Part shown: positions 7,071-59,837 of the stretch, piece by piece
Layout: each line of letters begins with the position of its first letter
How positions within the stretch are numbered: position 1 is the first letter of the stretch
Source: Alphaproteobacteria bacterium
GTDB taxonomy: Bacteria > Pseudomonadota > Alphaproteobacteria > UBA7879
Assembly (NCBI GenBank): GCA_002869105.1
Contig: PKTP01000010.1
Location: 55,789 to 119,788 of the forward strand
Direction of reading: 5' to 3'
Length of the DNA stretch: 64,000 bases
Translations under genes and position numbers: made by a program
Notes under the pieces: model-generated
The model's database searches: none
What the model was told of the DNA's origin: nothing
What the model saw: only the letters and a program-made list of their open reading frames with translations

Positions 7071-7819
7071 TTACTCCTTCCATGCATGATACGCACGCAC
7101 CACACCACATGCGTAATTTTTAACAGATATAGACTGATAGTTTGCCTCTTCTAAAAGCTGGCAAAATGTCTCTGGCGCCATAAATGTTTCAATGCTCTCG
7201 GCTAAATATTGATAAGCCGCCTCATTTTTGGCAACCCATTTTCCCATCAGGGGCAACAACCCAAAAGCATAGCCATCATAGATCCTTTTAATCACCTGGC
7301 TTTTGGGTTGGCTGAATTCCAAGCAATGAAAAGAGCCGCCGGGCCCCAAACACCGATAACTTTCTTTCAAAGCGGCCTGAACATCAGACACATTTCGAAT
7401 GCCAAAGGCAATGGAATACGAATCAAAAGCATCTGATTCAAAGGGCAAACGCTCTGCATTGGCGTGTATCCAGTCAATATTTTTAAAGAGGCCTTGATTA
7501 AACAGCTGATCCTGGCCCTTTTTGAGCATCTCTTCATTTAAATCAGTTGCAACAATCTGATAATCAAGGTTGTTCTTTTCCAGTCGACGTACAAGGGCGG
7601 CTGTAATATCACCCGTTCCAGCAGCCACATCCAGATGCTTCAGACCAGGCTTTAGCGGAAAGTCAGCAACAAATGATTTTTCCAAAGACGGTGTTGAAAT
7701 CCACTCATTAAGTCGTTCATCAGATCATATAGATCAGAAACATCGGAAAAAATCTTTTGAACACCCTCTCTTTTTTCTTCAGGGGTCACTTTTTGAAAAC
7801 CAAAGGGAGTTTGTGTCAT
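7071..7819 (-). pseudogene. ubiE: ubiE/menG demethylmenaquinone/ubiquinone C-methyltransferase, frameshifted: N-terminal 55 codons (7819..7655) are in a different frame from the SAM-MTase body (7685..7071)
   Basis: The upstream frame from the ATG at 7819 encodes MTQTPFGFQKVTPEEKREGVQKIFSDVSDLYDLMNDLMSGFQHRLWK..., a clear UbiE N-terminus. It runs into a stop at 7652. The body LDVAAGTGD... is in the frame one base off and, taken alone, would need a TTG start. A 5-nt homopolymer (T5 on +, 7677..7681) sits at the junction, and one extra A would restore ...HRLWKKSFVADF.... Confidence 0.7.
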
Positions 7820-26101: not shown

Positions 26102-29100
26102 TTGATGATGAGAAAAAAATCACTTCCTGACTCTAAACCCCGGGCTGCGTCTAAAAATATTTTTTTAAAGAATTTATCGCTATCGGGCACCCCTAAAGAT
26201 TTACTAGCTCTTTTGCTTGATGATCCCTCAACCAGTGGTGAGGACTTAGAGGAGCTTGGAAAAGCAGACCTTGAGCTTCTGTTAACAGAAAGCGTCAACT
26301 GCATAAAGAATACCGCCGCACAAGAAATTGTTATAGAATTTCTAATGCTCTCACATGAACCAAAAAACAAAACCGCTGTTTTAATTCACAACCAGGATAA
26401 ACCATTTTTGGTAGATTCCATTACAAACTGTCTACGCCTGGAACAACTAAATGCTGATTATTTCTTTCACCCCATCTTTAGACGAAAAATAAGCAATACA
26501 GGCAATCTCTCTCTTATTGCGCCAGACGAAGAAAAGCCACATGAAAATGAATCTCTGATTATCATTGTTATCAATCAGGACCTTCAAAAAGAGCAAAAAA
26601 AACAATTACATTTGAGCCTAGAGCATGTTCTCAGCCAAGTTGGACTAGCTGTTACAGACTGGGAAGAAATGCTCAAGAAAATGACCCAAGCCAAGAGCAA
26701 TATTGATCTGGGTAAAAAGCATTTTAAATCTACTTTCCTGAGTGAAATAAAGAATCTCCTGGAATGGTTTGAGCAGGGTCATTTTACATTTTTAGGATTC
26801 CGGGAATATATCTTTGAAGATCAAAACCCAAAAATCACTCAAAAGCTTGGCATTACCAAAGCACAAAGTTCTTGTTATTTTAAGCTGAATTGTACCCTGA
26901 ATGATGAAGGGCAAGACTTTCTACCAACAGATGAGCTCTTTATCATCACCAAAACCATCAGTCGCTCTTGGGTCCACCGATCAACACCCATGGATGTTAT
27001 TCGGCTCAAAAAATTTAATAATACTGGAGAAACTGTTGGGGAATATGAGTTTATTGGTTTGCTGACCTCCACGGCCTACAATATCAGTATTAAGCACATT
27101 CCCCTCCTTTCACAAAAATTAGAAATCGTTTTAGCAGCAAGTAAAACGCATCAAAACACCCATACACAGAAATCAATCATCCATATTCTAGAAACACTGC
27201 CCCGCGATGAATTCTTTCAATTCAGTGATGCTGATTTAATCTCCCTTGTACGGCACATTTTACAACTCCAAGATCGTGATCGTTTTCTCACTTATATTCG
27301 TCCTGATCCACTTGGACATTTGATTTCTGCGTATGTTTACCTTCCCACACAAAAATACAGCGATATGCTTCGTCAGAAAATTCAAGTTATTTTAGAACAA
27401 AGGCTTCAAGCACACGTCAACTCCTACAAACCAAATTTAGATCCCGATACCACCTATGCACGCATCTCATTTTCTCTTGCAAAAGCATCCGATCAAAAAA
27501 CCAAACTAAACACAAAAGAGCTTCAAAAAGAAATTGAAGAAGCTTCACAATCTTGGTCAGAAAGGTTCAAGGCCCTTTTGCTCAATGAGAAAGGTATTCC
27601 ATTAGAGTTTTCAGAGGCATTTCCAAAAAACTATCAGCTCCACCACACGCCCACTGAAGCCCTCTACGATACTAGAAAAAGCTTACAATCTCAAAATGAT
27701 GGCGACAAAATCGTTCATTTAGAACTCCATCAGGATCAAACATATAAAGTCAAGATTTACTATCCAGGACCTGCGGCGCCTTTAACAGAGTTAATGCTTG
27801 TTTTTGAACTCATGGGGCTAACCATAAAGTCTGCAATGAGTTACACAGTTGATAAAGCAGGAACAGCTTGTTTATTTACGATTCACGATTTTATTATTTC
27901 CATCCCTCAGGAAGTCAAGAGCAAAAACCCAAATCATTTAGGCAACATCGAGGATGGCGTTCAATCTATTCTAAGGGGCTATTACGAAAATGACTTCTTA
28001 AATTCTCTTATCTTTTATGCCAACTTGACTGTGTCACAGGTTAATGTTTTCCGGGCTTATTTCAAATATCTAAAGCAAATACGGTTTCCTTACAGTTTTC
28101 GGCTGATTTCTTCTGTTTTGAAAGAAAATGTAGCGTTTACCCAAATCATATGGTCTCTTTTTGAGAAGCGCTTTGACCCAAGTCTTAAAAATCAAAATTT
28201 AAATCACCTTCATTACAAGATTGACCGTTATCTTAAAAAATTAAAATCCCTTGAAGAAGATAGTATCTTTAGAGCGCTTTATACCCTAATCAAGGCTAGT
28301 CTTCGTACAAATCACTTCCAAAGAAAGTTGGCTGTATCACCCATAATTATAAAATTGGACTGTGCTTCCATTAACTTCCTACCAGAACCAAAGCCCATGA
28401 TTGAGCTCTTTGTCTATCACAAAGACTTTGAAGGCGTTCATTTGCGCACGGGTAAGGTAGCACGCGGTGGCATGAGATGGTCTGATCGGATTGAAGATTT
28501 TAGAACTGAAATTCTAGGCCTGATGAAAGCACAAAAGGTTAAAAATACGGTCATCATTCCTGTTGGCGCTAAAGGGGGATTTGTTCTCAAGAAAGCATTC
28601 AAACCTGAAGAACGCGATGAGAAACAAGCTTTTGGGATCGCGTGCTATCAGAAAATGATCCAAGTTATGATTGATATCACCGATAATGTGATTAACGATA
28701 AGCCCAAGCACCCTAAGAACATTGTGTGCCATGATGACTATGACCCCTATCTTGTTGTTGCAGCTGACAAAGGAACCGCCACATTTTCTGATTATGCAAA
28801 TGAGATTGCTCTAGAAAATAAATTTTGGTTGGGTGATGCTTTTGCCTCAGGGGGATCAAATGGTTACGATCATAAGAAGATGGCCATTACCGCAAAAAGT
28901 GCCTGGAAGTCCGTTCAACATCACTTCCGAAAACTCGGCGTTGATGTTCAGGAAACCCCGATTGATGTTGTTGGTATTGGCGATATGTCCGGGGATGTTT
29001 TTGGCAATGGCATGCTTTGCTCTGATAAAATCAGACTGATTGCCGCTTTTAATCACCAGCATATCTTTATTGATCCAAACCCTGATCCCAAGAAAAGTTA

Positions 29101-30868
29101 TGATGAGCGCCAAAGAATGTTTCAGCTTAAAAGGTCGACATGGCAGGACTATAATCAGGATATGCTATCCAAGGGTGGGGGTATTTACAGTCGCTCTGAT
29201 CGAGAAATTGATCTGTCTTCCCAGGCCCAAAAAGCTCTTAAAATTTCAAAAAAAAGAGTCAATCCCAATGAATTAATAAAAATAATTTTAAAAGCTCCGG
29301 TTGATCTCCTCTGGTTTGGGGGAATTGGAACTTACGTAAAAAGCCGTCAAGAAACCCAAGATAGTGTCAATGATCACAGCAATGACGATATTCGTATTAA
29401 TGGATCTGACCTGAAATGTACAGTTGTTGGAGAAGCTGCAAATTTGGGCATGACTCAGCTTGGACGCATTGAATTTGCGCTTGAAGGCGGACATGTTAAT
29501 ACTGATGCCATTGATAATTCCGCGGGTGTTGACTGCTCGGATTATGAAGTTAATATCAAGATCCTTCTTCGCAAACTTCTCCTTGAGAAAAAAATTACAG
29601 AACAGCAGCGCAACACGCTCCTCAGGGGCATGGAAGAAGAAGTTTCTGAATTGGTTCTATTTCATAATACGGCTCAGAATAATGCCATTTCTATTATTCA
29701 AGAAAGAGGGCTTAAAGTCCTGAGTAGGCAACAACGTTTTATGCGTTTTTTAGAATCAAAAGACTATTTAAACCGGCAATTAGAATTTTTACCCAGTGCA
29801 GATGGTATGCTTGAAAGACAAAATGAGCGAATGGGTCTGACGCGCCCAGAGATCGCTGTCTTGCTCGCCTATGGAAAAATTTTCACCTATGATCAAGTTT
29901 TAAAAAGTTGCCTCTTTGAGCAAAGATATTTTGTGAAAAATCTGAAAGACTACTTTCCAAAAGCACTGTCTCAGAAGTATCTCTGGGCTATAGAAGAGCA
30001 TCCATTAAAAAAAGAGATCATTACGACATCTATCTGTAATGAAGTTGTGAATCAACAAGGTCCGTCTTACCTAACAGAGATCATGTCAATAACCAACGCA
30101 GAAGCTGAGATTATATTACTCTATTATTATCTGATTCGAGATAGCCTGAGTATCAAAAATCTCTCCCAAGCGATTAATGATCTGAAAGCAAATATCCCCT
30201 TTGATTCCCAACAAAAATTAACCCTTGAGCTGATGACGGCACTGGATTACTGCGTGATATGGGCTGTGTCAAATTTAGAGGTGCATAAAAAGAAAAATTT
30301 TGATTTAGAAACCACAATCACACACACCCATCAAAAAATTTCTGCTTTACGAGAAAAACTCCCTCAAATACTCGATAAGCTCTCCCTGAGAGAACTCGAA
30401 AAAGCCAAGGGCGCCTATCTAAAGAAAGGCGTTCCTGAAAAATTAGTACATCATGCTTTAGCCAATCGTCATCTAAAATACGCCTGGGTTTTTCTAAAAA
30501 TCAGTCAAGAACAACACCATGATTTTCTCAAGGTCGCTGAAATCTTTTTTATGCTGAATGGCTTCCTTCACCTTCCTTGGTTCCATGAAAAAAATGAGCT
30601 TCTGAGAACAGATGATCCATGGCGAAAAAAGAATATCACACAGATCAAAACTGAACTTGACAGAGCTCATTTTAAATTAACAAAACAGGTGTTATCAAAG
30701 ATGCCCTCCAAAAAATCCTCTGTGTCCCATTGTTTTGAAAACTGGAAAGATCAAGCTCAAGTCAAGGAGTATCAGAAACTCATGAAAGAATTTATAGGCT
30801 GTCAAAAAATAACCATGGACATGCTAAGAATTGCATTAAACTCTCTGTTATCCCTGATGCAGGAATAG
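26102..30868 (+). CDS. gdh: Large NAD-specific glutamate dehydrogenase (about 180 kDa)
   Basis: 1588-aa ORF with the Bac_GDH catalytic core (ARGGMRWSDR...IIPVGAKGGFVLK...VAADKGTATFSD). This length is typical of the large NAD-GDH class. Confidence 0.9.
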   Translation: MMMRKKSLPDSKPRAASKNIFLKNLSLSGTPKDLLALLLDDPSTSGEDLEELGKADLELLLTESVNCIKNTAAQEIVIEFLMLSHEPKNKTAVLIHNQDKPFLVDSITNCLRLEQLNADYFFHPIFRRKISNTGNLSLIAPDEEKPHENESLIIIVINQDLQKEQKKQLHLSLEHVLSQVGLAVTDWEEMLKKMTQAKSNIDLGKKHFKSTFLSEIKNLLEWFEQGHFTFLGFREYIFEDQNPKITQKLGITKAQSSCYFKLNCTLNDEGQDFLPTDELFIITKTISRSWVHRSTPMDVIRLKKFNNTGETVGEYEFIGLLTSTAYNISIKHIPLLSQKLEIVLAASKTHQNTHTQKSIIHILETLPRDEFFQFSDADLISLVRHILQLQDRDRFLTYIRPDPLGHLISAYVYLPTQKYSDMLRQKIQVILEQRLQAHVNSYKPNLDPDTTYARISFSLAKASDQKTKLNTKELQKEIEEASQSWSERFKALLLNEKGIPLEFSEAFPKNYQLHHTPTEALYDTRKSLQSQNDGDKIVHLELHQDQTYKVKIYYPGPAAPLTELMLVFELMGLTIKSAMSYTVDKAGTACLFTIHDFIISIPQEVKSKNPNHLGNIEDGVQSILRGYYENDFLNSLIFYANLTVSQVNVFRAYFKYLKQIRFPYSFRLISSVLKENVAFTQIIWSLFEKRFDPSLKNQNLNHLHYKIDRYLKKLKSLEEDSIFRALYTLIKASLRTNHFQRKLAVSPIIIKLDCASINFLPEPKPMIELFVYHKDFEGVHLRTGKVARGGMRWSDRIEDFRTEILGLMKAQKVKNTVIIPVGAKGGFVLKKAFKPEERDEKQAFGIACYQKMIQVMIDITDNVINDKPKHPKNIVCHDDYDPYLVVAADKGTATFSDYANEIALENKFWLGDAFASGGSNGYDHKKMAITAKSAWKSVQHHFRKLGVDVQETPIDVVGIGDMSGDVFGNGMLCSDKIRLIAAFNHQHIFIDPNPDPKKSYDERQRMFQLKRSTWQDYNQDMLSKGGGIYSRSDREIDLSSQAQKALKISKKRVNPNELIKIILKAPVDLLWFGGIGTYVKSRQETQDSVNDHSNDDIRINGSDLKCTVVGEAANLGMTQLGRIEFALEGGHVNTDAIDNSAGVDCSDYEVNIKILLRKLLLEKKITEQQRNTLLRGMEEEVSELVLFHNTAQNNAISIIQERGLKVLSRQQRFMRFLESKDYLNRQLEFLPSADGMLERQNERMGLTRPEIAVLLAYGKIFTYDQVLKSCLFEQRYFVKNLKDYFPKALSQKYLWAIEEHPLKKEIITTSICNEVVNQQGPSYLTEIMSITNAEAEIILLYYYLIRDSLSIKNLSQAINDLKANIPFDSQQKLTLELMTALDYCVIWAVSNLEVHKKKNFDLETTITHTHQKISALREKLPQILDKLSLRELEKAKGAYLKKGVPEKLVHHALANRHLKYAWVFLKISQEQHHDFLKVAEIFFMLNGFLHLPWFHEKNELLRTDDPWRKKNITQIKTELDRAHFKLTKQVLSKMPSKKSSVSHCFENWKDQAQVKEYQKLMKEFIGCQKITMDMLRIALNSLLSLMQE

Positions 30869-32979: not shown

Positions 32980-33300
32980 ATGAATGCAGTACTCTATCCA
33001 TTATTAAAGATTTTATTATTTGCTCTCTCTGGATATAAGGTCCTGCTGCTCGCCTATGCCCTGTTAAGCTGGCTTTATCTTTTTGGAATTATTCGCCCGG
33101 ACAGCAACTTTTTTGCCGCTGTCAATCAGTTCCTTACCTCGATTACTGAGCCGATCCTGGTACAAATAAGAAGATTTGTGCCTTCTCCAGGAGGCATTGA
33201 TCTCTCTTTTATTGTGCTATTTATTGCCATTCAAATGTCTTCAGAAATTGTTAGGCGATTTTTAGTCAGCCTGAGCCATCAGGCTGACTATATCATTTAA
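32980..33300 (+). CDS. YggT-family small membrane protein
   Basis: The ORF-track ORF was trimmed to the Met at 32980, after the fabI stop. The product has two TM helices and the YggT-like ...LSWLYLF...TEPILVQIRRFVPSPGGIDLSFIV. Confidence 0.6.
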   Translation: MNAVLYPLLKILLFALSGYKVLLLAYALLSWLYLFGIIRPDSNFFAAVNQFLTSITEPILVQIRRFVPSPGGIDLSFIVLFIAIQMSSEIVRRFLVSLSHQADYII

Positions 33301-33302
33301 AA

Positions 33303-34295
33303 CTATAGTTTGACGGTGCCGCCCAGTGCAGCTGAATAGGATTTAAACGTTCCACCGCGAAAATAGTCCCCTAACGTTTGCTGATTGGTTTTGACGGACC
33401 CGCGCTTAATCTTAAAGTATTTCATACCAACATCTGCTGACATGTTAAAAGTCTGCGTGAGTTGAGCGGTTACCCCAACTTTGGCTTCCCCGCCATAGGT
33501 ATTGCTAGAATCACGATAAGAGTGACTTGGTCATTTACCATTTCCTTTAAACCAACCATACATCAGCTTAAGTAGGCCTTGTCCTTTAACGTTACTGCTA
33601 ATTTCCAAGTTCATATCTCCCCCGACCCACGGGCCATAAATTTTCATTTTATAAGTGCCACGCTTTCCACTGAATACTGTCCCAACAGCAGGAGGGGCGT
33701 TGTTGGCCCCATTATTCGGGAAAATATTATAATTGGCTTGGCTCGAGACCGTTTGTTTTGTATCACGCATTTCATAATCACGGCTTGTATAGAATGCCCC
33801 AGCAAGCGCTCTAAATTGATCCGCATCTAAAAAAGCAGCCCCCACACTTCCATCTAGTGCCGATCCTACAACTTTGCTCTGAGACTCCGACCACATCAGT
33901 GTTTTATTACTCCCTGAATAATCCCGATCAATCATTTTTCCTTTTTTGCGCAGCACACCATAAAAAACTTCATAGATCACTGGAATGCCCATGGCTTCAG
34001 CCTCCCCTGAAAGCCCTCCACCCATCACATGTATATTTTTCCAATCAAGCGTCGAAACCACATTAGGTGTGCCATTTTTATAACCAATGCCAATATCAAA
34101 ATTTTCAATGGCATACCGAACAGCCGGCTTCATTACAACCTTAGGTTTTTTTTGGGGGCCAGATGAGCCAAACATCCCTCCCATTATACCAGAAGGGCTT
34201 GATCCAAATCCTCCAAGGGTTTGGGCAGCCTCTAAAGATACAACAGAAAAAAACAACACTAAAAACACATAAATAAAAAAGAAAGATTTTTTCAT
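33303..34295 (-). CDS. Putative outer-membrane beta-barrel protein (MipA/OmpV-like) whose reading frame carries an internal TGA at 33531..33533; possible pseudogene or read-through
   Basis: Signal peptide MKKSFFFIYVFLVLFFSVVSLEA, then G/S-rich alternating beta-strand sequence. The ORF-track ORF ends GNGK-TGA at 33531. The same frame continues for 77 codons (PSHSYRDSSNTYGGEAKVGVTAQLTQTFNMSADVGMKYFKIKRG...GGTVKL) to a TAG at 33303, exactly filling the gap up to the yggT stop. Confidence 0.55.
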
Positions 34296-40962: not shown

Positions 40963-41553
40963 TTATGCTGCAATAGCGACAGCGTTGTTCTTTTGGTAAA
41001 GCGCATATTCATTGCTTAAGCGCCTGACTTTCACCGCAAGTTTTTTTTGCGGCAACTCTAAAATAGCATCTAATGAACGTGTTCGGCTATGGTCTGATTG
41101 ATAACGCTGGGTCCATGTTTCTCCAAAACCTAATTCAACAGAGTTATTCATTCTTTGATTGAATCTCATAGACGCATCACCCAGCAGTGGGCACAGATAA
41201 AAATGAAAATCACGCACCCATGCTTGCAAATGTGATGTCTTCATTTCTAATAATCCATCAAGGCGCTTGCCTTGATCCTGTATAGACTGTTTCCTTAGAC
41301 GCCTCTCCCAGGCAACATCAACCGGCTGAAGCGGGTGAACAAAAATATCAGGAAGGGCGTTGTTGTTTACAACATTTGGTTGAGTAAGAACGGCTGGCTC
41401 TTCAATGCCCGCTGGAACTTGGTTTACAAAACCTTGAACGGGCAGATCATCATGCCCAAAATCATCAGAACTTTGAGATAAAACATTTTGAGCGTAAACC
41501 AAAAACATCCATACAAAAATATGGCGCGCAACAAAGGAGAGAAGAGTTTTCAT
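40963..41553 (-). CDS. Hypothetical secreted protein
   Basis: 196-aa ORF with an N-terminal signal-like segment (HIFVWMFLVYAQNVLSQ). No recognisable domain. Confidence 0.4.
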   Translation of the reverse strand: MKTLLSFVARHIFVWMFLVYAQNVLSQSSDDFGHDDLPVQGFVNQVPAGIEEPAVLTQPNVVNNNALPDIFVHPLQPVDVAWERRLRKQSIQDQGKRLDGLLEMKTSHLQAWVRDFHFYLCPLLGDASMRFNQRMNNSVELGFGETWTQRYQSDHSRTRSLDAILELPQKKLAVKVRRLSNEYALYQKNNAVAIAA

Positions 41554-41705
41554 TTTTTCCTCTTTTAAATTTAAGATGGGGATTTAAATCCAAATCAATA
41601 CTCAAAATAGGAAGGAGAGAGTCAAAATTCAAGGGCAGAGAAATCGATCTTCCAATGCTACTTGTCGCATTAAAAACCAAAAATTTAGAAGGTGTTTTTA
41701 AATGG

Positions 41706-43133
41706 TCATCCCATGAGAAAAGGACTTGTGCCCAAGCCCAGCAGTTGCCACCAGAGGCTTCCAACTCCCCACCAAACAACAATGTAAAACAATCCAAGGA
41801 CAAACCCAATTTTCCACCAGGTTTTGACCGTCAAGTAATTCCCTCCAAAATATACAGGGGCAGATCCTGTCCCGTAATGGGTAATACATGACGACAAGCA
41901 ACTAAACGCAGCCAACGTCATAGCCGCTTGAAACCCATCAATCCCTTTGTTGATCAAAACAGCTAAGAATACGCCAAACATGGTGCTGATTAAAGCCGTT
42001 GTACTGGCAAAGAAATAATGCGTGTAAAAATAAACAGCCGAAATAATCACAAACGCCATCACAGGACTTTGGGTGGCAACAAGATCAGCCACGCCTGCCC
42101 CAAACCAATCGATGATGCCAGACTTGCTGATTTCATGGGCATACATAATCAAGGCCCCAAACCAAACAAACGTATTCCAAGCTGACTTCTCTTTAATCAT
42201 ATCATCCCAGCTAATAACCTTAGCCATCACCAGCAGAACAATCCCAATCATCGCTGCAAGGGTGGCATGAATGCCGTATGAGGCGCCACCCGCCCACATC
42301 AATAACAATCCAGCAAAAATAAAGGAGAGAATCTTCTGTTTTTGATCCATGGGGCCCATGTGCCCTAATTCCTTTTTGGCCATTTGCCGAGCATCAACCG
42401 ATTCAAGTTTTTCCGGTTTCAAGAAGGGATAAATGATCACCGGAATCAAGGCCAAACAGATCAAACCAGGCAAGCTTCCGGCCAAGGCCCATTTACCCCA
42501 GGAAAGCTCTATCCCTTGCTGGGCTGCAAAATCAGCCGCAAACGGGTTACCCGCAATCGCTGTTAAGAACATGGTACTGGTGATGATATTTGCTTGAAAT
42601 GCGCTTTTGATTAAAAAGGGCCCCAGCGCTCCTTTTTTATCAGGGGTAACGCGGTTGCCGTCAAAAGCATTAATCAAAGACCTAATAATGGGGTAGATAA
42701 TACCACCCCCTCTCGCTGTATTACTGGGTATAGCAGGCGCCAAGATTAAATCCGTTAAAACAAAACTATACGCAAGTCCCAACGGGCTCCGCCCAAACCG
42801 CGCCAAAATATGATACGAAATCCGCTGTCCCAAACCCGTAAGAGTCAAAGCCTGGGCAATAAAAAACGCAAACAAGATCAGCCAAACAATCGGTTTACCA
42901 TAAGCAGATAAGGCATCCTGGATAGTCAGAACACCCGTCAAACAGGCCGAGGAAATTGACAGCGTAATCAATGCACCAAGGGGAAGCGGTTTAAAGATAA
43001 TGGCAACAATCGTTGCGATAAATATAATAAAAAGGTGCCAGGCATGCTCTGTCAAACCAGAGGGCACAGGTATATACCAAAAAACAACCGCTAAAAGAAC
43101 AATAATTCCAAGGTTAATATAGTCTCTCATCAA
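41706..43133 (-). CDS. DASS-family (SLC13-like) anion:sodium symporter, likely a di/tricarboxylate transporter
   Basis: 475-aa ORF with about 12-14 TM segments and the DASS N-terminal region GIIVLLAVVFWYIPVPSGLTEHAWHLFIIFIATIVAII, plus duplicated hairpin-loop motifs. Confidence 0.65.
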   Translation of the reverse strand: MMRDYINLGIIVLLAVVFWYIPVPSGLTEHAWHLFIIFIATIVAIIFKPLPLGALITLSISSACLTGVLTIQDALSAYGKPIVWLILFAFFIAQALTLTGLGQRISYHILARFGRSPLGLAYSFVLTDLILAPAIPSNTARGGGIIYPIIRSLINAFDGNRVTPDKKGALGPFLIKSAFQANIITSTMFLTAIAGNPFAADFAAQQGIELSWGKWALAGSLPGLICLALIPVIIYPFLKPEKLESVDARQMAKKELGHMGPMDQKQKILSFIFAGLLLMWAGGASYGIHATLAAMIGIVLLVMAKVISWDDMIKEKSAWNTFVWFGALIMYAHEISKSGIIDWFGAGVADLVATQSPVMAFVIISAVYFYTHYFFASTTALISTMFGVFLAVLINKGIDGFQAAMTLAAFSCLSSCITHYGTGSAPVYFGGNYLTVKTWWKIGFVLGLFYIVVWWGVGSLWWQLLGLGTSPFLMG

Positions 43134-55309: not shown

Positions 55310-56538
55310 TGTCTGACGGTGGGTCCAACCCTTATCGCCATCCGTTTGTCCGCTGGCTTGAAAAGCGTTTGCCGATCATCAGCTTTGTAGAGCACGCCCT
55401 CAAAGGCTACCAGGTCCCTAAAAACCTCTCGATCCTCTGAACAAGTGGGTTTATCGCCGGCTTCATGCTGGTGGTGATGATCCTCACTGGGATCTTGCTC
55501 GCCATGCATTATGTCCCCCATCCCGATCATGCCTTTGATAGCGTTGAGCGCATCATGAGAGAGGTTAATTTCGGCTGGCTCATTCGCTATCTTCATGCCA
55601 ACGGTGCGTCGCTGTTTTTCTTGGTTGTGTATATGCACATGTTCCGGGCGCTCTATTACGGCTCCTACAAATCACCGCGAGAAGTGTTATGGATCATCGG
55701 CATGATTATTTTCCTGGTCATGATGGCCACCGCTTTCTTAGGCTATGTGTTGCCCTGGGGGCAGATGAGTTATTGGGGCGCCACAGTCATCACCAATCTT
55801 TTTACAGCGATCCCCTGGATTGGGGATAGCATTCTTGAATGGCTGCTTGGTGCACCTTACGTAGGGGCGCCTGCTTTGAACAAATTCTTTGCGCTCCATT
55901 ATTTGCTTCCCTTCCTCATGTTTTTACTGGTCTTTATTCACATATGGGCCCTGCACACCCATGGATCCAATAATCCCACCGGTATTGAACCTAAAACCGC
56001 CGAAGACACCCTTCCCTTCCATCCCTATTACACTGTTAAGGATCTCCTTTCTATCGCCGGATTTATGGTGATTTTTGCTTTTTTCATTTTCTTTGCGCCC
56101 AACTTTTTTGGGGAGCCCGAAAATTACATCCCCGCTGATCCAATGGTCACCCCCGACCACATTGTGCCTGAGTGGTACTTTCTTCCGTTTTATGCGATTT
56201 TGCGCGCCATTCCCGATAAATTAGGGGGCGTTGTTGCCATGATTTCATCGATTTTGGTGTTGTTTGTGTTGCCCTGGCTTGATGGCTCCAAAGTTAAAAG
56301 CTGCACGTTCCGACCGATTTTTCGGGCCCTGTTCTGGGTTTTTGTTCTCGATGTTCTCATTCTAGGCTGGGTAGGTGCTAAACCAGCTGAAGGGCATTAT
56401 ATTGGAATCGGGCAATGGGCCACCGCTTATTACTTCATTCACTTTTTAATTTTGGTGCCCCTCGTAAGCCGTTTTGAAAAGCCCAGTGGCTTGCCCGACT
56501 CTCTCTCTGCCTACTATCGAGACAAGGGCTGTTCATGA
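55309..56538 (+). CDS. petB: Cytochrome b of the bc1 complex; full-length frame carries a single in-frame TGA at 55438..55440
   Basis: TAATG overlap with petA. The frame from 55309 encodes [70 protein letters not shown]..., collinear with cytochrome b N-termini (...PKNLNYWWNFGSLAG...). The ORF-track ORF 55465..56538 is the downstream 357 aa in the same frame, with heme-ligand His residues intact. Confidence 0.85.
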
Positions 56539-57362: not shown

Positions 57363-58199
57363 GTGATCAATACTTTCACTTTCAGATTCGTTCTTCTTTT
57401 TTTTAGTGCTGTTGTATCCGCTGAGCACATTCAAACCGTCAAAATTGAAGAAATCCGTTGTGATCTTCCTCACAATAAAGACGCTGATGATTTTGCCAAA
57501 ATTGAAATCATTGACTATCAAAAATGCCAAAAAGATTTTTCATACGCTCTCGATCGCTTTCTTTGGGGCTATCAAACCATTCAATCCTGTCCAACTCTTC
57601 AAAACAAGGCGGGCCAAAAACGCGCTGAATTAGGCAAAGTTGCCGACTGCCTAGCTGTTTACGATGCACCTTTTTTGAATAAAATCGTTTCGGAGCAATT
57701 GATGGCGGCTCGTAAGAGTCGTGACCAGAAATCCAAACGTTCTTCACACCAACGGTATCCCCATGTATCGCCCGCCAACACAGAACTTTATGCTCTTCTA
57801 GATCAGTATAGCCCTCTCTATCAAATTCTAGATGCGATCATTCGTTATCTTGAGAGCCCGACACCACACATTGCCCAAAAGCAAACGATTGTCCCCCTAA
57901 ATTCAAATAAATCAATTTCCATTAATGTTGCAGAGCTCATCAAACAGTTTGAAGCACATGCTCAATCAGTTGAGCGGGGAGTTAACAAAAAAGAAAATTT
58001 AAAAATCCTCAAAGCACAAAAGATAGTGCTGTATCTGATTGACTCTCTTATTCCAAAAGTATCACCTCATCTTTACGTGTGTGCCTGTGGCGACAAACGA
58101 TACATCATCAATGCCACCACCCTTAAAAAAAATCCCGAAAAATTCTTCGTGCTTTTCCCTCAAGTTTTAGAATTTATTGAATCCAATCAGTGCGCCTAA
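57363..58199 (+). CDS. Hypothetical secreted protein
   Basis: 278-aa ORF with a GTG start and signal peptide MINTFTFRFVLLFFSAVVSA. Several Cys. No family recognised. Confidence 0.45.
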   Translation: MINTFTFRFVLLFFSAVVSAEHIQTVKIEEIRCDLPHNKDADDFAKIEIIDYQKCQKDFSYALDRFLWGYQTIQSCPTLQNKAGQKRAELGKVADCLAVYDAPFLNKIVSEQLMAARKSRDQKSKRSSHQRYPHVSPANTELYALLDQYSPLYQILDAIIRYLESPTPHIAQKQTIVPLNSNKSISINVAELIKQFEAHAQSVERGVNKKENLKILKAQKIVLYLIDSLIPKVSPHLYVCACGDKRYIINATTLKKNPEKFFVLFPQVLEFIESNQCA

Positions 58200-58322
58200 A
58201 ATGAAAAAAAACGAAATTATAGCCTTCTGTCAAAAGCCGTTACGGGTGTTGATTTCAAGCCTTTAGCCCAGACAAAATTCAATAAGCATCCCCAAATCTT
58301 TGGCCCTCTTGCTCAAAAAACG

Positions 58323-59837
58323 TTGCAAGAACTAGATAAAATGACCGATGTTAACAGTCTCATGGTCGGGTTTTTTAAGGCTCTTGCACGCGGTCAAGAA
58401 ACAGCCACCATCCCCAATGAAAAGTTTAACCATTCCCGCACACACCCCCAGCAAGGCGAAAAAAAGATTTTTGCCACCGCCCAGTACACCGTTGATACCC
58501 AAAAGCTTTTGACGCTGTTAACCTCTCTGCCCGTTCAAAAAATAAGTCCCTCAGATTTTACCAATTTCTTTCTCGAATCTATTCTCACCTCTCTTGATGC
58601 AAGCTATGCCCAAGAGCTGCCCAAAAACCTCCAAGAGGGCATCAAAAACTCCAGCAGATCTCTCGCTGAAACCAACCTTCTGGGGTGCAAGATCAAAGAA
58701 ACAGGTGCAGACTTTCATGTTCTTTTTGACCCCAAAAAATGTACAAACCTCGTGTATGCTTTTTCACATCTCTACAGACTCTTCATTTTTGCCAAAGACT
58801 GTCAGACGAATAGTTCACAACCCATGACAAAAGCCCGGGAATGTTTAAAAACCGCAACAAAATCCTTTGAAAAGAATCCCACGTATCCGCCAGAACTCAA
58901 ACAGCCCTTGGGGGAAATTTCACATCAAATGAACGTTGAGACAGCTCTTCGTTCTTTTTCAAAGGCGCTAGAAAATATCAACCCCAAAGGACAGTTTTCA
59001 TCTCAGTTCTCCTCCCATAGCCCTGCCGGTCGCACCACCCTTCAAAACAGTTCCATGATCACCTTTTCGATCGCGGGTCTTGTCAAACATGTTCGCAACG
59101 CCATCAACCAAAAGCTCGCTGATGATGTTGCCCTCATGAAAAAATATCAAGCCCCCCGAACGCACAACCAAGCGCTGAAGGAACTTGATCAACAGCAGGC
59201 CTCTCAAGCACAAGCTTCTTTAACGTACATCTCGCAAAAAATTAAGAGCGGGCTCTCTGAGCGCATGGTCTGTCCATCCTCCCAGTCAGACATATATATA
59301 AACCGCTTTGCCTGCTCTCTGGGGGATATCGCTCTTCTCAACACCCTTTATGACATCGTTGCCTTTCAGCCAACGTGCAAGGAAGAACTCAACGTTCAAA
59401 AGTCAAAATTAGTGTCCAAATGCTTCACCTATTTTGAACAGGCAAACGAGAGCGGCTTTAAAAGTCTTTCTGCTGATCAAATGAAAACGTTGGCTCAAGC
59501 TCATTTTTCTCTCTTTAACTTTTTGAAAAGCTACACCAACGCTGTTAAAACGTTTTCAGAGTCCTTTAACGTTCCCATAGGTTTTCCTGAAGTTCAGGAA
59601 ATAACGTTCACGGTTAAAGAGGTGAATGAGGCCATACGCAAAAGCCAGGCCCACAAAGCCACAGACCCCCATAATCAACGACGGGCTGGCGCCGTGTTCA
59701 ACGCTCTTTATCAGTTGATCCTTCTTAAAAGATCAGACCTATACAATAAGAAGGCGCCGCCGGCTCCCAAAAAACGAAAAAAAATGGGGCGATTCTTTCC
59801 TAAGAAGAAACAACAATCAAAAGCAAAAAAAACCTGA
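58323..59837 (+). CDS. Hypothetical cytosolic protein with a C-terminal polybasic, nuclear-localisation-like tail
   Basis: 504-aa ORF with no signal peptide or TM helix. The C-terminus reads NKKAPPAPKKRKKMGRFFPKKKQQSKAKKT. Confidence 0.45.
   Translation: MQELDKMTDVNSLMVGFFKALARGQETATIPNEKFNHSRTHPQQGEKKIFATAQYTVDTQKLLTLLTSLPVQKISPSDFTNFFLESILTSLDASYAQELPKNLQEGIKNSSRSLAETNLLGCKIKETGADFHVLFDPKKCTNLVYAFSHLYRLFIFAKDCQTNSSQPMTKARECLKTATKSFEKNPTYPPELKQPLGEISHQMNVETALRSFSKALENINPKGQFSSQFSSHSPAGRTTLQNSSMITFSIAGLVKHVRNAINQKLADDVALMKKYQAPRTHNQALKELDQQQASQAQASLTYISQKIKSGLSERMVCPSSQSDIYINRFACSLGDIALLNTLYDIVAFQPTCKEELNVQKSKLVSKCFTYFEQANESGFKSLSADQMKTLAQAHFSLFNFLKSYTNAVKTFSESFNVPIGFPEVQEITFTVKEVNEAIRKSQAHKATDPHNQRRAGAVFNALYQLILLKRSDLYNKKAPPAPKKRKKMGRFFPKKKQQSKAKKT

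What the first reader, a model, noticed from the sequence alone, without database searches (positions are those of the whole stretch)
33303..34295. Outer-membrane protein ORF terminated by UGA-C but followed by 77 in-frame sense codons that fill the entire downstream gap
The 254-aa ORF ends ...MYGWFKGNGK-TGA. Reading on in the same frame gives 77 codons without a stop (PSHSYRDSSNTYGGEAKVGVTAQLTQTFNMSADVGMKYFKIKRGSVKTNQQTLGDYFRGGTFKSYSAALGGTVKL), ending 2 nt from the convergent yggT stop. The chance expectation for 77 stop-free codons at this GC content is about 2-3%. The extension has the alternating polar/hydrophobic pattern of beta-barrel strands, so the ancestral gene was about 331 aa. UGA followed by C is the leakiest stop context in bacteria. 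Together with the petB case this raises the possibility of UGA read-through or recoding rather than two independent nonsense mutations.
Basis: seen in the sequence. Interest (0 to 1): 0.65.

Follow-up and report, generated by a model that had tools for sequence, protein, structure and literature searches.

The report
Nonsense-mutated porin gene in endosymbiont
An outer-membrane barrel protein gene in an uncultured Holosporaceae bacterium carries a recent Trp-to-stop (TGG to TGA) mutation; it is one of several ordinary gene-killing lesions nearby and shows no sign of a special way of reading UGA.

Summary
The 254-codon ORF at 33531..34295 (-) ends in TGA-C. It is followed by 75 in-frame sense codons (not 77), which end 2 nt from the yggT stop.

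The read-through product is a full-length member of Pfam PF17251 (Pom, Protochlamydia porin family). A model of its 95%-identical intact homologue folds as an omptin-like 10-stranded barrel. The TGA replaces a Trp that is invariant in all 45 family members aligned, and it removes strands 8-10. Two sister strains (96.8-97.2% nt identity, same synteny) have TGG at this codon.

The TGA allele appears in two further metagenome assemblies as well as the source sample, so it is not an assembly error.

The recoding idea fails on four counts:
- TGA terminates 19 of 63 ORFs in the window, and the checked ones have conserved C-termini.
- Only 2 of 227 Trp positions are TGA.
- No RNA structure follows the stop.
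- The same contig also carries an in-frame TAG in ctaD, an in-frame TAA in an 824-aa hypothetical gene, and a frameshift in ubiE.

The best reading is a young nonsense allele in a genome that is eroding, with its respiratory chain hit repeatedly. Passive low-level read-through by tRNA-Trp, which would restore the wild-type protein, cannot be excluded.

The parts
33534..34295 (-). The 254 sense codons of the truncated Pom-family outer-membrane protein gene. They encode the signal peptide, a Gly/Ser-rich linker and barrel strands 1-7.
   Evidence: Pfam PF17251, 31.6 bits against a cutoff of 22.4. AF2 model of the 95%-identical homologue P0001.
34221..34295 (-). Predicted N-terminal signal peptide, MKKSFFFIYVFLVLFFSVVSLEAAQ.
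   Evidence: Read from the sequence. AF2 gives a helix at residues 2-22, followed by a low-confidence linker at 20-43. No signal-peptide predictor was available.
33531..33533 (-). Premature TGA (codon 255, next base C). It replaces a TGG Trp codon.
   Evidence: TGG in six L001-type contigs, in L013/L014 and in L015. Trp in all 6 close homologues. This Trp is one of only 6 invariant columns among 45 family members.
33306..33530 (-). 75 in-frame codons, no longer reached by normal translation. They encode barrel strands 8-10 and the C-terminal strand (...SYSAALGGTVKL).
   Evidence: 96% aa identity to the sister strain, no indels; 7 synonymous and 3 non-synonymous differences from L001.
33303..33305 (-). 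The original TAG stop of the full-length gene, 2 nt from the yggT stop.
   Evidence: All sister-strain genes end at this same TAG.
33303..33443 (-). Spurious 46-aa ORF (MSADVGMKYFKIKRG...) inside the orphaned 3' part. A 46-aa protein covering this C-terminal stretch exists as its own entry in the protein library.
   Evidence: P0146 (46 aa) matches profile positions 283-328; I did not retrieve its sequence.
32980..33300 (+). Convergent neighbour yggT (106 aa). It bounds the locus, and the synteny YmdB-Pom-yggT-fabI is conserved in all relatives.

Best explanation
The locus is the single-copy, syntenic Pom-family (PF17251) outer-membrane beta-barrel gene of an uncultured Holosporaceae-related alphaproteobacterium (MAG protein PLX29286.1, locus tag C0582_05260). 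In this strain lineage one G-to-A transition changed the invariant Trp codon 255 from TGG to TGA.

RF2-dependent termination at that codon gives a 254-residue product with only strands 1-7 of a 10-stranded barrel. It lacks the C-terminal strand. By general knowledge of barrel assembly by BAM (inference, not tested here), such a fragment cannot close a barrel or insert in the membrane. The allele is therefore a null, or at best a severe hypomorph.

The 75-codon tail still looks intact because the mutation is young. It is one of at least five independent lesions on about 84 kb of this contig, three of them in the quinol/bc1/oxidase branch of respiration. That pattern fits ongoing reductive erosion in a host-restricted bacterium.

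Shown here: the homology, the ancestral Trp, that the allele is real, normal use of TGA as a stop, and the other lesions. Inferred: loss of function and the genome-erosion framing.
For: - Family and length: the Pfam Pom profile is covered only when the TGA is read through. Homologues are 308-328 aa and align to the last residue.
- Ancestral state: the site is Trp in all 6 close homologues and invariant in 45 diverse members. It is TGG in two sister strains at 96.8-97.2% nt identity with identical synteny.
- Allele is real: the independent Logan assembly of SRR5894286 is 100% identical over 20.7 kb. The allele is also present in ENA ERZ24794615 (L022) and Logan SRR28062646 (L023).
- Structure: the AF2 model of P0001 (pLDDT 88.9, pTM 0.82) is a 10-stranded barrel. 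The Trp sits in the connection between strands 7 and 8, so strands 8-10 are lost.
- TGA is a normal stop: 19 of 63 ORFs end in TGA. polA, the photolyase gene and the symporter gene end where their L007/L008 orthologues end.
- Other lesions on the same contig:
  - petB, TGA at a Trp codon.
  - ctaD, TAG at a Trp codon.
  - The 824-aa hypothetical gene has TAA where L012 has GAA.
  - ubiE has a run of A5 where L025 has A6 and an intact 249-aa gene.
- petB also carries a window-specific A283D change in the otherwise conserved TPAHIVPEWY motif.
- The substitution spectrum on the window's branch is ordinary.
Against: - The tail shows no decay at all. Private changes on the window's branch are about 3 synonymous and 1 conservative Val/Ile change. 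That is also what continued translation would predict.
- Three of the four nonsense lesions hit Trp codons, and two of those are TGG to TGA. The mutational expectation for TGG to TGA is about 10% of nonsense mutations, giving P of about 0.03 for 2 of the 3 lesions inside the window. This is a post hoc test on a tiny sample. It hints that leaky UGA-at-Trp alleles survive preferentially.
- The TGA allele persists in at least three read sets. It is therefore tolerated, even though the gene is conserved and seemingly single-copy.
- RF2 and tRNA-Trp of this genome could not be examined.
Confidence: 0.8

Rival explanations
1. Passive but functionally meaningful read-through. Wild-type tRNA-Trp (anticodon CCA) occasionally reads UGA, and the UGA-C context terminates weakly. 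A fraction of ribosomes would then insert Trp and make the exact wild-type 330-aa barrel. The allele would be a tolerated hypomorph, and TGG-to-TGA changes would survive selection better than other nonsense mutations.
For: - Read-through by tRNA-Trp would restore the ancestral residue, since the site is Trp in all homologues.
- The next base is C. By my knowledge of E. coli work, UGA-C is among the weakest termination signals. UGA-C is also the leakiest tetranucleotide in yeast (abstract of PMC4748822).
- Two of the three in-window nonsense lesions are TGG to TGA, against about 10% expected.
- The tail is intact, and the allele persists across read sets.
Against: - The petB TGA is followed by A, not C.
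- TAG and TAA lesions and a frameshift occur on the same contig. Tolerance of dead genes therefore needs no read-through.
- No stimulatory RNA structure follows the stop (z = 0.59).
- Typical bacterial UGA leak is around 1% or less (my knowledge), which is little for an abundant porin.
- Only 2 of 227 Trp positions are TGA, so TGG-to-TGA changes are clearly selected against.
Confidence: 0.13
2. Sequencing, assembly or consensus artefact: the organism actually has TGG, and the A is an error or a minority variant.
For: The source is a MAG assembled at about 17x coverage (contig name). The change is a single base.
Against: The same base is present in an independent assembly of the same run. It is also present in contigs from ERZ24794615 and SRR28062646. 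The petB TGA is likewise shared with ERZ24794615.
Confidence: 0.04
3. Genuine recoding: UGA reassigned to Trp (genetic code 4 or an ambiguous intermediate), or programmed insertion of selenocysteine or another residue at this codon.
For: Two in-frame TGAs fall at invariant Trp positions within 64 kb. A metagenome gene caller read through the TGA on the short contig L023.
Against: - 30% of ORFs terminate in TGA, and the checked ones end where their orthologues end.
- 225 TGG against 2 TGA at Trp positions.
- Sister strains have TGG.
- In-frame TAG and TAA also occur.
- No SECIS-like hairpin and no Rfam hit. Homologues have Trp at this site, not Cys.
Confidence: 0.02

Closest known systems
Pom porin family (Pfam PF17251; PomS/PomT of Protochlamydia amoebophila, PMC3561449)
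   Same: The Pfam hit is above the gathering score. The protein has a signal peptide followed by a beta-barrel of about 300 aa, and 188 representative relatives of similar length exist. Like the Protochlamydia proteins, it belongs to an intracellular bacterium of protists.
   Different: The host lineage is an alphaproteobacterium (Holosporaceae), whereas the 2013 paper described the family as restricted to Parachlamydiaceae. This copy is truncated by a stop codon. Porin activity was not tested for this clade.
Omptin outer-membrane proteases (OmpT, Pla; 10-stranded barrel)
   Same: Omptins are the best structural match (Foldseek E = 2e-12, TM 0.65-0.73). The family profile finds OmpT by sequence at E = 1e-5. 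The invariant D-x-D motif (D123/D125) aligns with the OmpT stretch 'DRDW', which I take to contain catalytic D83/D85; that residue numbering is from memory, not from the tool output.
   Different: There is no Pfam Omptin hit, and identity is only about 15%. A counterpart of the second catalytic pair (Asp210/His212) was not identified. Protease activity is unknown.
Leaky UGA nonsense alleles read by tRNA-Trp in bacteria (natural suppression)
   Same: A UGA at a Trp codon in a weak termination context. Any read-through by tRNA-Trp would regenerate the wild-type protein.
   Different: Nothing here shows that read-through actually occurs or matters. There is no conserved stop, no stimulatory signal, and other stop types also interrupt genes nearby.
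UGA-to-Trp reassignment (code 4: Mycoplasmatales, Hodgkinia, Nasuia, Zinderia, Ca. Organicella; PMC8204192)
   Same: An endosymbiont lifestyle, and in-frame TGA at Trp positions.
   Different: In this genome TGA is a frequent and conserved terminator. In-frame TGA accounts for under 1% of Trp positions, GC content is about 43%, and TAG and TAA lesions co-occur.
Early-stage pseudogenes of host-restricted bacteria undergoing genome reduction
   Same: Single inactivating lesions sit in otherwise intact, syntenic genes. Several lesions of different types occur per about 80 genes. Older lesions are shared between sub-strains and newer ones are private.
   Different: The sampled region is only about 84 kb, so the genome-wide pseudogene load is unknown.

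Membership tests
Pom (PF17251) outer-membrane barrel family | Match to the Pfam HMM above the gathering score over the full profile | tested here: met
   the read-through product scores 42.8 bits (cutoff 22.4) over profile 23-278 of 285. The truncated ORF scores 31.6 bits over profile 23-176 only.
Pom (PF17251) outer-membrane barrel family | N-terminal signal peptide and a closed beta-barrel | tested here: met
   the AF2 model of P0001 (95% identical) has pLDDT 88.9, an N-terminal helix at residues 2-22 and 10 antiparallel strands. The signal peptide was judged by eye only.
Pom (PF17251) outer-membrane barrel family | Pore-forming (porin) activity in the outer membrane | not testable with these tools
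   Shown only for P. amoebophila PomS/PomT (PMC3561449).
Omptin proteases (PF01278) | 10-stranded barrel fold | tested here: met
   Pla and OmpT are the top hits, with TM 0.65-0.73.
Omptin proteases (PF01278) | Sequence match to the omptin family model | tested here: not met
   no Omptin hit at E <= 1. Only a weak profile-to-sequence match to OmpT was found (E = 1e-5).
Omptin proteases (PF01278) | Both catalytic pairs (Asp83/Asp85 and Asp210/His212) | tested here: inconclusive
   The invariant D123-x-D125 aligns with OmpT 'DRDW'. No clear Asp/His counterpart was seen. The invariant Trp lies in the connection between strands 7 and 8.
Programmed stop-codon read-through / recoding site | The in-frame stop is conserved among relatives | tested here: not met
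   Sister strains and all homologues have TGG/Trp. The TGA is shared only by near-identical (99.9% or more) sub-strains.
Programmed stop-codon read-through / recoding site | Downstream stimulatory RNA structure or SECIS element | tested here: not met
   MFE z-score of 0.59 against shuffles; the only Rfam hits in the window are three tRNAs.
Genetic code 4 (UGA = Trp) | TGA not used as a terminator | tested here: not met
   19 of 63 ORFs end in TGA. polA, the photolyase gene and the symporter gene end at the orthologous C-terminus.
Genetic code 4 (UGA = Trp) | TGA common at conserved Trp positions | tested here: not met
   225 TGG against 2 in-frame TGA in 20,128 codons.
Genetic code 4 (UGA = Trp) | Loss of RF2 (prfB) and a UGA-reading tRNA-Trp | not testable with these tools
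   Neither gene lies in the window or the fetched flanks.
   Pom is the only Pfam family found at E <= 1.
Pseudogene formed by a nonsense mutation | An intact full-length orthologue at the same locus in close relatives, with the lesion derived | tested here: met
Pseudogene formed by a nonsense mutation | Relaxed constraint or decay downstream of the lesion | tested here: not met
   no indels and mostly synonymous private changes. This is consistent with a very young lesion, but it is not positive evidence for loss of function.

The most novel reading that the evidence does not exclude
This Holosporaceae lineage may tolerate TGG-to-TGA changes in important genes (its only Pom barrel gene, cytochrome b) because tRNA-Trp reads UGA at a useful rate and so regenerates the wild-type proteins. 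If so, it would be a natural example of the 'ambiguous intermediate' stage on the path to UGA = Trp, in a genome that still uses RF2 and still has 30% TGA stops.
Probability: 0.06. Interest if true: 0.6.

Novelty: already known. Interest (0 to 1): 0.18.

Why it matters
The main practical point is annotation. The 254-aa 'hypothetical protein' (PLX29286.1) and the 46-aa downstream ORF are two pieces of one Pom-family gene broken by a nonsense mutation. petB is likewise split into 43-aa and 357-aa calls, and ubiE into 55-aa and 204-aa calls.

Biologically, the lesions together point to a strain that is losing an outer-membrane barrel protein and parts of its quinol-to-oxygen respiratory chain. 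That is typical of reductive evolution in protist endosymbionts.

The finding does not reveal a new decoding mechanism. It would only matter for genetic-code evolution if UGA read-through were later shown to be efficient in this organism.

Tried and rejected
- **Code 4 or reassignment.** Rejected on stop-codon usage, conserved C-termini of TGA-terminated genes, and the TGG/TGA census.
- **Selenocysteine or a structured read-through signal.** Rejected: there is no hairpin and no Rfam hit, and homologues have Trp, not Cys.
- **Assembly error.** Rejected by identical calls in an independent assembly and in two other read sets.
- **Hypermutation or DNA damage artefact.** The private substitution spectrum of the window's lineage resembles that of both sister lineages.
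- **MipA/OmpV or OmpW membership.** No hits.
- **'petB case' location.** I first looked at 40963..43133, which turned out to be a Na/sulfate symporter plus small ORFs. The real petB is at 55309..56538.
- **JGI metagenome scan** for the TGR pattern gave one contig only, with TGG.
- **Contigs found through YmdB** in other samples ended before the TGA site and gave no information.
- **Literature search by run accession** found nothing.
- **tRNA-Trp and prfB** were not found in the window or in the 20 kb of flanks fetched.

Full report
**1. The observation**

On the minus strand an ATG-initiated ORF runs from 34295 to 33531. It has 254 codons and ends ...MYGWFKGNGK-TGA, followed by C. The same frame stays open for 75 more codons, to TAG at 33303..33305. 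That TAG lies 2 nt from the stop of the convergent yggT gene (32980..33300).

The full reading is 254 + TGA + 75 + TAG = 331 codons. At this base composition, a stop-free run of 75 codons has a chance of roughly 1% (my arithmetic). Of the 63 ORFs in the window, four have 75 or more open codons after their stop, and the other three each have a specific explanation.

**2. What the gene is**

Pfam places the product in PF17251, 'Pom' (Protochlamydia outer membrane protein). The truncated ORF covers only profile positions 23-176 of 285. The read-through product covers 23-278 of 285.

A search of 5.8 billion proteins found six homologues at 95-50% identity and 308-328 aa. All of them align through the extension to the final ...GG.VKL/F. 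A profile search of 1.84 billion representatives found 188 family members, almost all 290-400 aa.

In a 45-member alignment only six columns are invariant: S81, D123, D125, G166, W253 and G297 (P0001 numbering). The position of the window's TGA is W253.

AlphaFold2 on the 95%-identical P0001 with that alignment gave pLDDT 88.9 and pTM 0.82. The model has a signal helix, a disordered Gly/Ser linker and ten long antiparallel strands. The invariant Trp sits in the short connection between strands 7 and 8. The TGA therefore deletes strands 8-10.

Foldseek against the PDB puts the omptins Pla and OmpT first (E = 2e-12, TM 0.65-0.73). The family profile detects OmpT by sequence at E = 1e-5, with the invariant D-x-D aligned to the OmpT stretch 'DRDW'. 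The barrel is therefore omptin-like. It is not MipA/OmpV or OmpW.

**3. Whose genome it is, and the ancestral state**

The exact 254-aa product is NCBI PLX29286.1, 'MAG: hypothetical protein C0582_05260 [Alphaproteobacteria bacterium]', on a 224.7-kb contig. The nearest named genomes carrying the gene are Holosporaceae MAGs.

Two sister strains are represented by eight further metagenome contigs: L001-L006 at about 96.8% nt identity, and L013/L014 at 97.2%. They share the synteny photolyase - 5-FTHF cyclo-ligase - YmdB - Pom - yggT - fabI and encode an intact 328-aa protein. In the DNA alignments the only difference at this codon is TGG against TGA. The lesion is thus a derived single G-to-A transition.

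Downstream of the stop the window differs from L001 by 7 synonymous and 3 non-synonymous changes, and from L013 by 7 and 1. There are no indels. The changes private to the window's branch are about three synonymous plus one Val/Ile. The tail has not started to decay.

**4. Is the base real?**

The Logan assembly of run SRR5894286 is 100% identical to the window over 20.7 kb, including the TGA. A contig from ENA assembly ERZ24794615 (L022, 3 mismatches in 4,285 nt) has its Pom gene call ending at the same stop. A Logan contig from SRR28062646 (L023) is identical across the site.

The allele therefore belongs to a strain seen in at least three read sets. It is not an assembler artefact.

**5. 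Testing the recoding idea**

(a) Stop usage. TGA ends 19 of the 63 ORFs in the window, often in ATGA overlaps. The TGA-terminated polA, photolyase and symporter genes end where their orthologues in L007/L008 end.

(b) Trp codons. The window's ORFs contain 225 TGG and only 2 in-frame TGA.

(c) RNA signals. The 121 nt around and after the stop fold no better than shuffled sequence (z = 0.59). Rfam finds only three tRNAs in the window, and none is tRNA-Trp.

(d) The petB case is real. The gene starts at 55309 and has TGA at 55438-55440, where all relatives read PKNLSILW. The sister strain has an intact 409-aa gene. The near-identical strain in ERZ24794615 shares the TGA.

(e) Other kinds of lesion occur on the same contig:
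- A TAA at 58197-58199 splits an 824-aa hypothetical secreted protein. L012 has GAA there, and the TAA is reproduced in the Logan assembly.
- ubiE is frameshifted at an A5 run near 7676. L025 has A6 and an intact 249-aa gene.
- About 7.4 kb upstream of the window, ctaD (COX1) has an in-frame TAG at the conserved Trp of ...IHFW....

All three stop codons and a frameshift are thus represented. This contradicts a UGA-specific decoding mechanism and fits independent inactivating mutations.

**6. What remains slightly odd**

Three of the four nonsense lesions hit Trp codons, and two are TGG to TGA. With the observed substitution spectrum and codon usage, TGG to TGA should make up about 10% of nonsense mutations. 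That gives P of about 0.03 for two of the three in-window lesions. The sample is tiny and the test is post hoc.

Still, it is what one would expect if UGA-at-Trp alleles are the least harmful nonsense alleles, because rare misreading of UGA by tRNA-Trp regenerates the wild-type protein. I keep this as a rival at about 13%, and the 'ambiguous intermediate' version as the novel case at about 6%.

The private substitution spectrum of the window's lineage is ordinary. DNA damage or hypermutation does not explain the pattern.

**7. Mechanistic reading**

Shown here: a derived TGG-to-TGA change at an invariant Trp, loss of the last three of ten strands, normal use of TGA as a terminator, and several other lesions. 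Two of these (the Pom and petB TGAs) are shared with a sub-strain, and two (the TAA and the ubiE frameshift) are private to the window's sample.

Inferred: a 7-strand fragment lacking the C-terminal strand cannot be assembled by BAM, so the allele is null or strongly hypomorphic. The lesions in petB, ctaD and ubiE, together with the A283D change in the conserved TPAHIVPEWY motif of cytochrome b, suggest the strain is shedding its quinol-bc1-oxidase branch. Such loss is a common course for energy-parasitic endosymbionts (my knowledge).

**8. Comparison and novelty**

The gene belongs to a known family (Pom), here in an alphaproteobacterial endosymbiont rather than the Parachlamydiaceae where it was first described (PMC3561449).

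Interest is low. The main value lies in correcting the annotation of the split genes, and in noting the coherent erosion of respiratory genes.

Noticed in passing
window 55309-56538 (+); TGA at 55438-55440: petB (cytochrome b) has an in-frame TGA at the conserved Trp of PKNLSILW. Gene callers split it into 43-aa and 357-aa ORFs. The TGA is shared with the 99.7%-identical contig L012 (ERZ24794615), while sister strains have an intact 409-aa gene. petB also carries a window-specific A283D change in the conserved TPAHIVPEWY motif.
   Followed up: yes
window 57363-59837 (+); TAA at 58197-58199: An 824-aa hypothetical secreted protein with no Pfam hit is split by an in-frame TAA. Contig L012 has GAA (Glu) at that codon and an uninterrupted frame. 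The TAA is reproduced in the Logan assembly of SRR5894286.
   Followed up: yes
window 7071-7818 (-); A5 run near 7672-7676: ubiE (ubiquinone/menaquinone methyltransferase) carries a -1 frameshift in a homopolymer. Its N-terminal 47 codons are in a different frame from the 204-aa body. Contig L025 (ERZ24794615) has one more A and an intact 249-aa gene.
   Followed up: yes
L024 1592-3163 (same MAG contig, about 7.4 kb upstream of the window start); TAG at L024 2861-2863: ctaD (cytochrome c oxidase subunit 1) has an in-frame TAG at the conserved Trp of ...GKIHFW..., and the remaining 99 codons are intact. Together with petB and ubiE, this makes three lesions in the quinol-bc1-oxidase branch of respiration.
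   Followed up: partly
Pom family alignment A4 and model mea823f2aecce (window gene 33303-34295): The Pom family (PF17251) folds as an omptin-like 10-stranded barrel. Its invariant D-x-D motif aligns with the OmpT stretch 'DRDW', which I take to contain catalytic Asp83/Asp85 (numbering from memory). The second catalytic pair is not evident. Whether Pom proteins are porins only, or also hydrolases, is open.
   Followed up: partly
L023 809-1099 (Logan SRR28062646_119908), equivalent to window 33303-33593: A metagenome gene caller produced one 96-aa ORF straight through the in-frame TGA on this 1.1-kb contig. I presume it chose a translation-table-4 model for a short contig, but did not check this. 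Calls like this can hide or mimic recoding.
   Followed up: no
window 34395 (YmdB-Pom intergenic T run): The window has T7 where three other read sets (L018, L019, L020) have T8, about 100 nt upstream of the Pom start codon. This could be a real indel in a promoter region or homopolymer noise.
   Followed up: no
window 41553-41706, compared with L001 1425-2741: The sister strain (L001) carries an extra 243-aa gene with a faint ankyrin-repeat hit between the Na/sulfate symporter gene and the 196-aa hypothetical gene. The window and L013 lack it. This is strain-variable gene content of a kind often seen among endosymbiont effectors.
   Followed up: no
window 49335-51743 (+): An 802-aa ORF has two sets of D-Ala-D-Ala ligase N- and C-terminal domains. 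It looks like a tandem-fused double Ddl, which is unusual.
   Followed up: no
window 26102-30868 (+): A 1,588-aa NAD-specific glutamate dehydrogenase of the large Bac_GDH type lies next to nhaA. It is intact in the window and present at the same locus in relatives.
   Followed up: no
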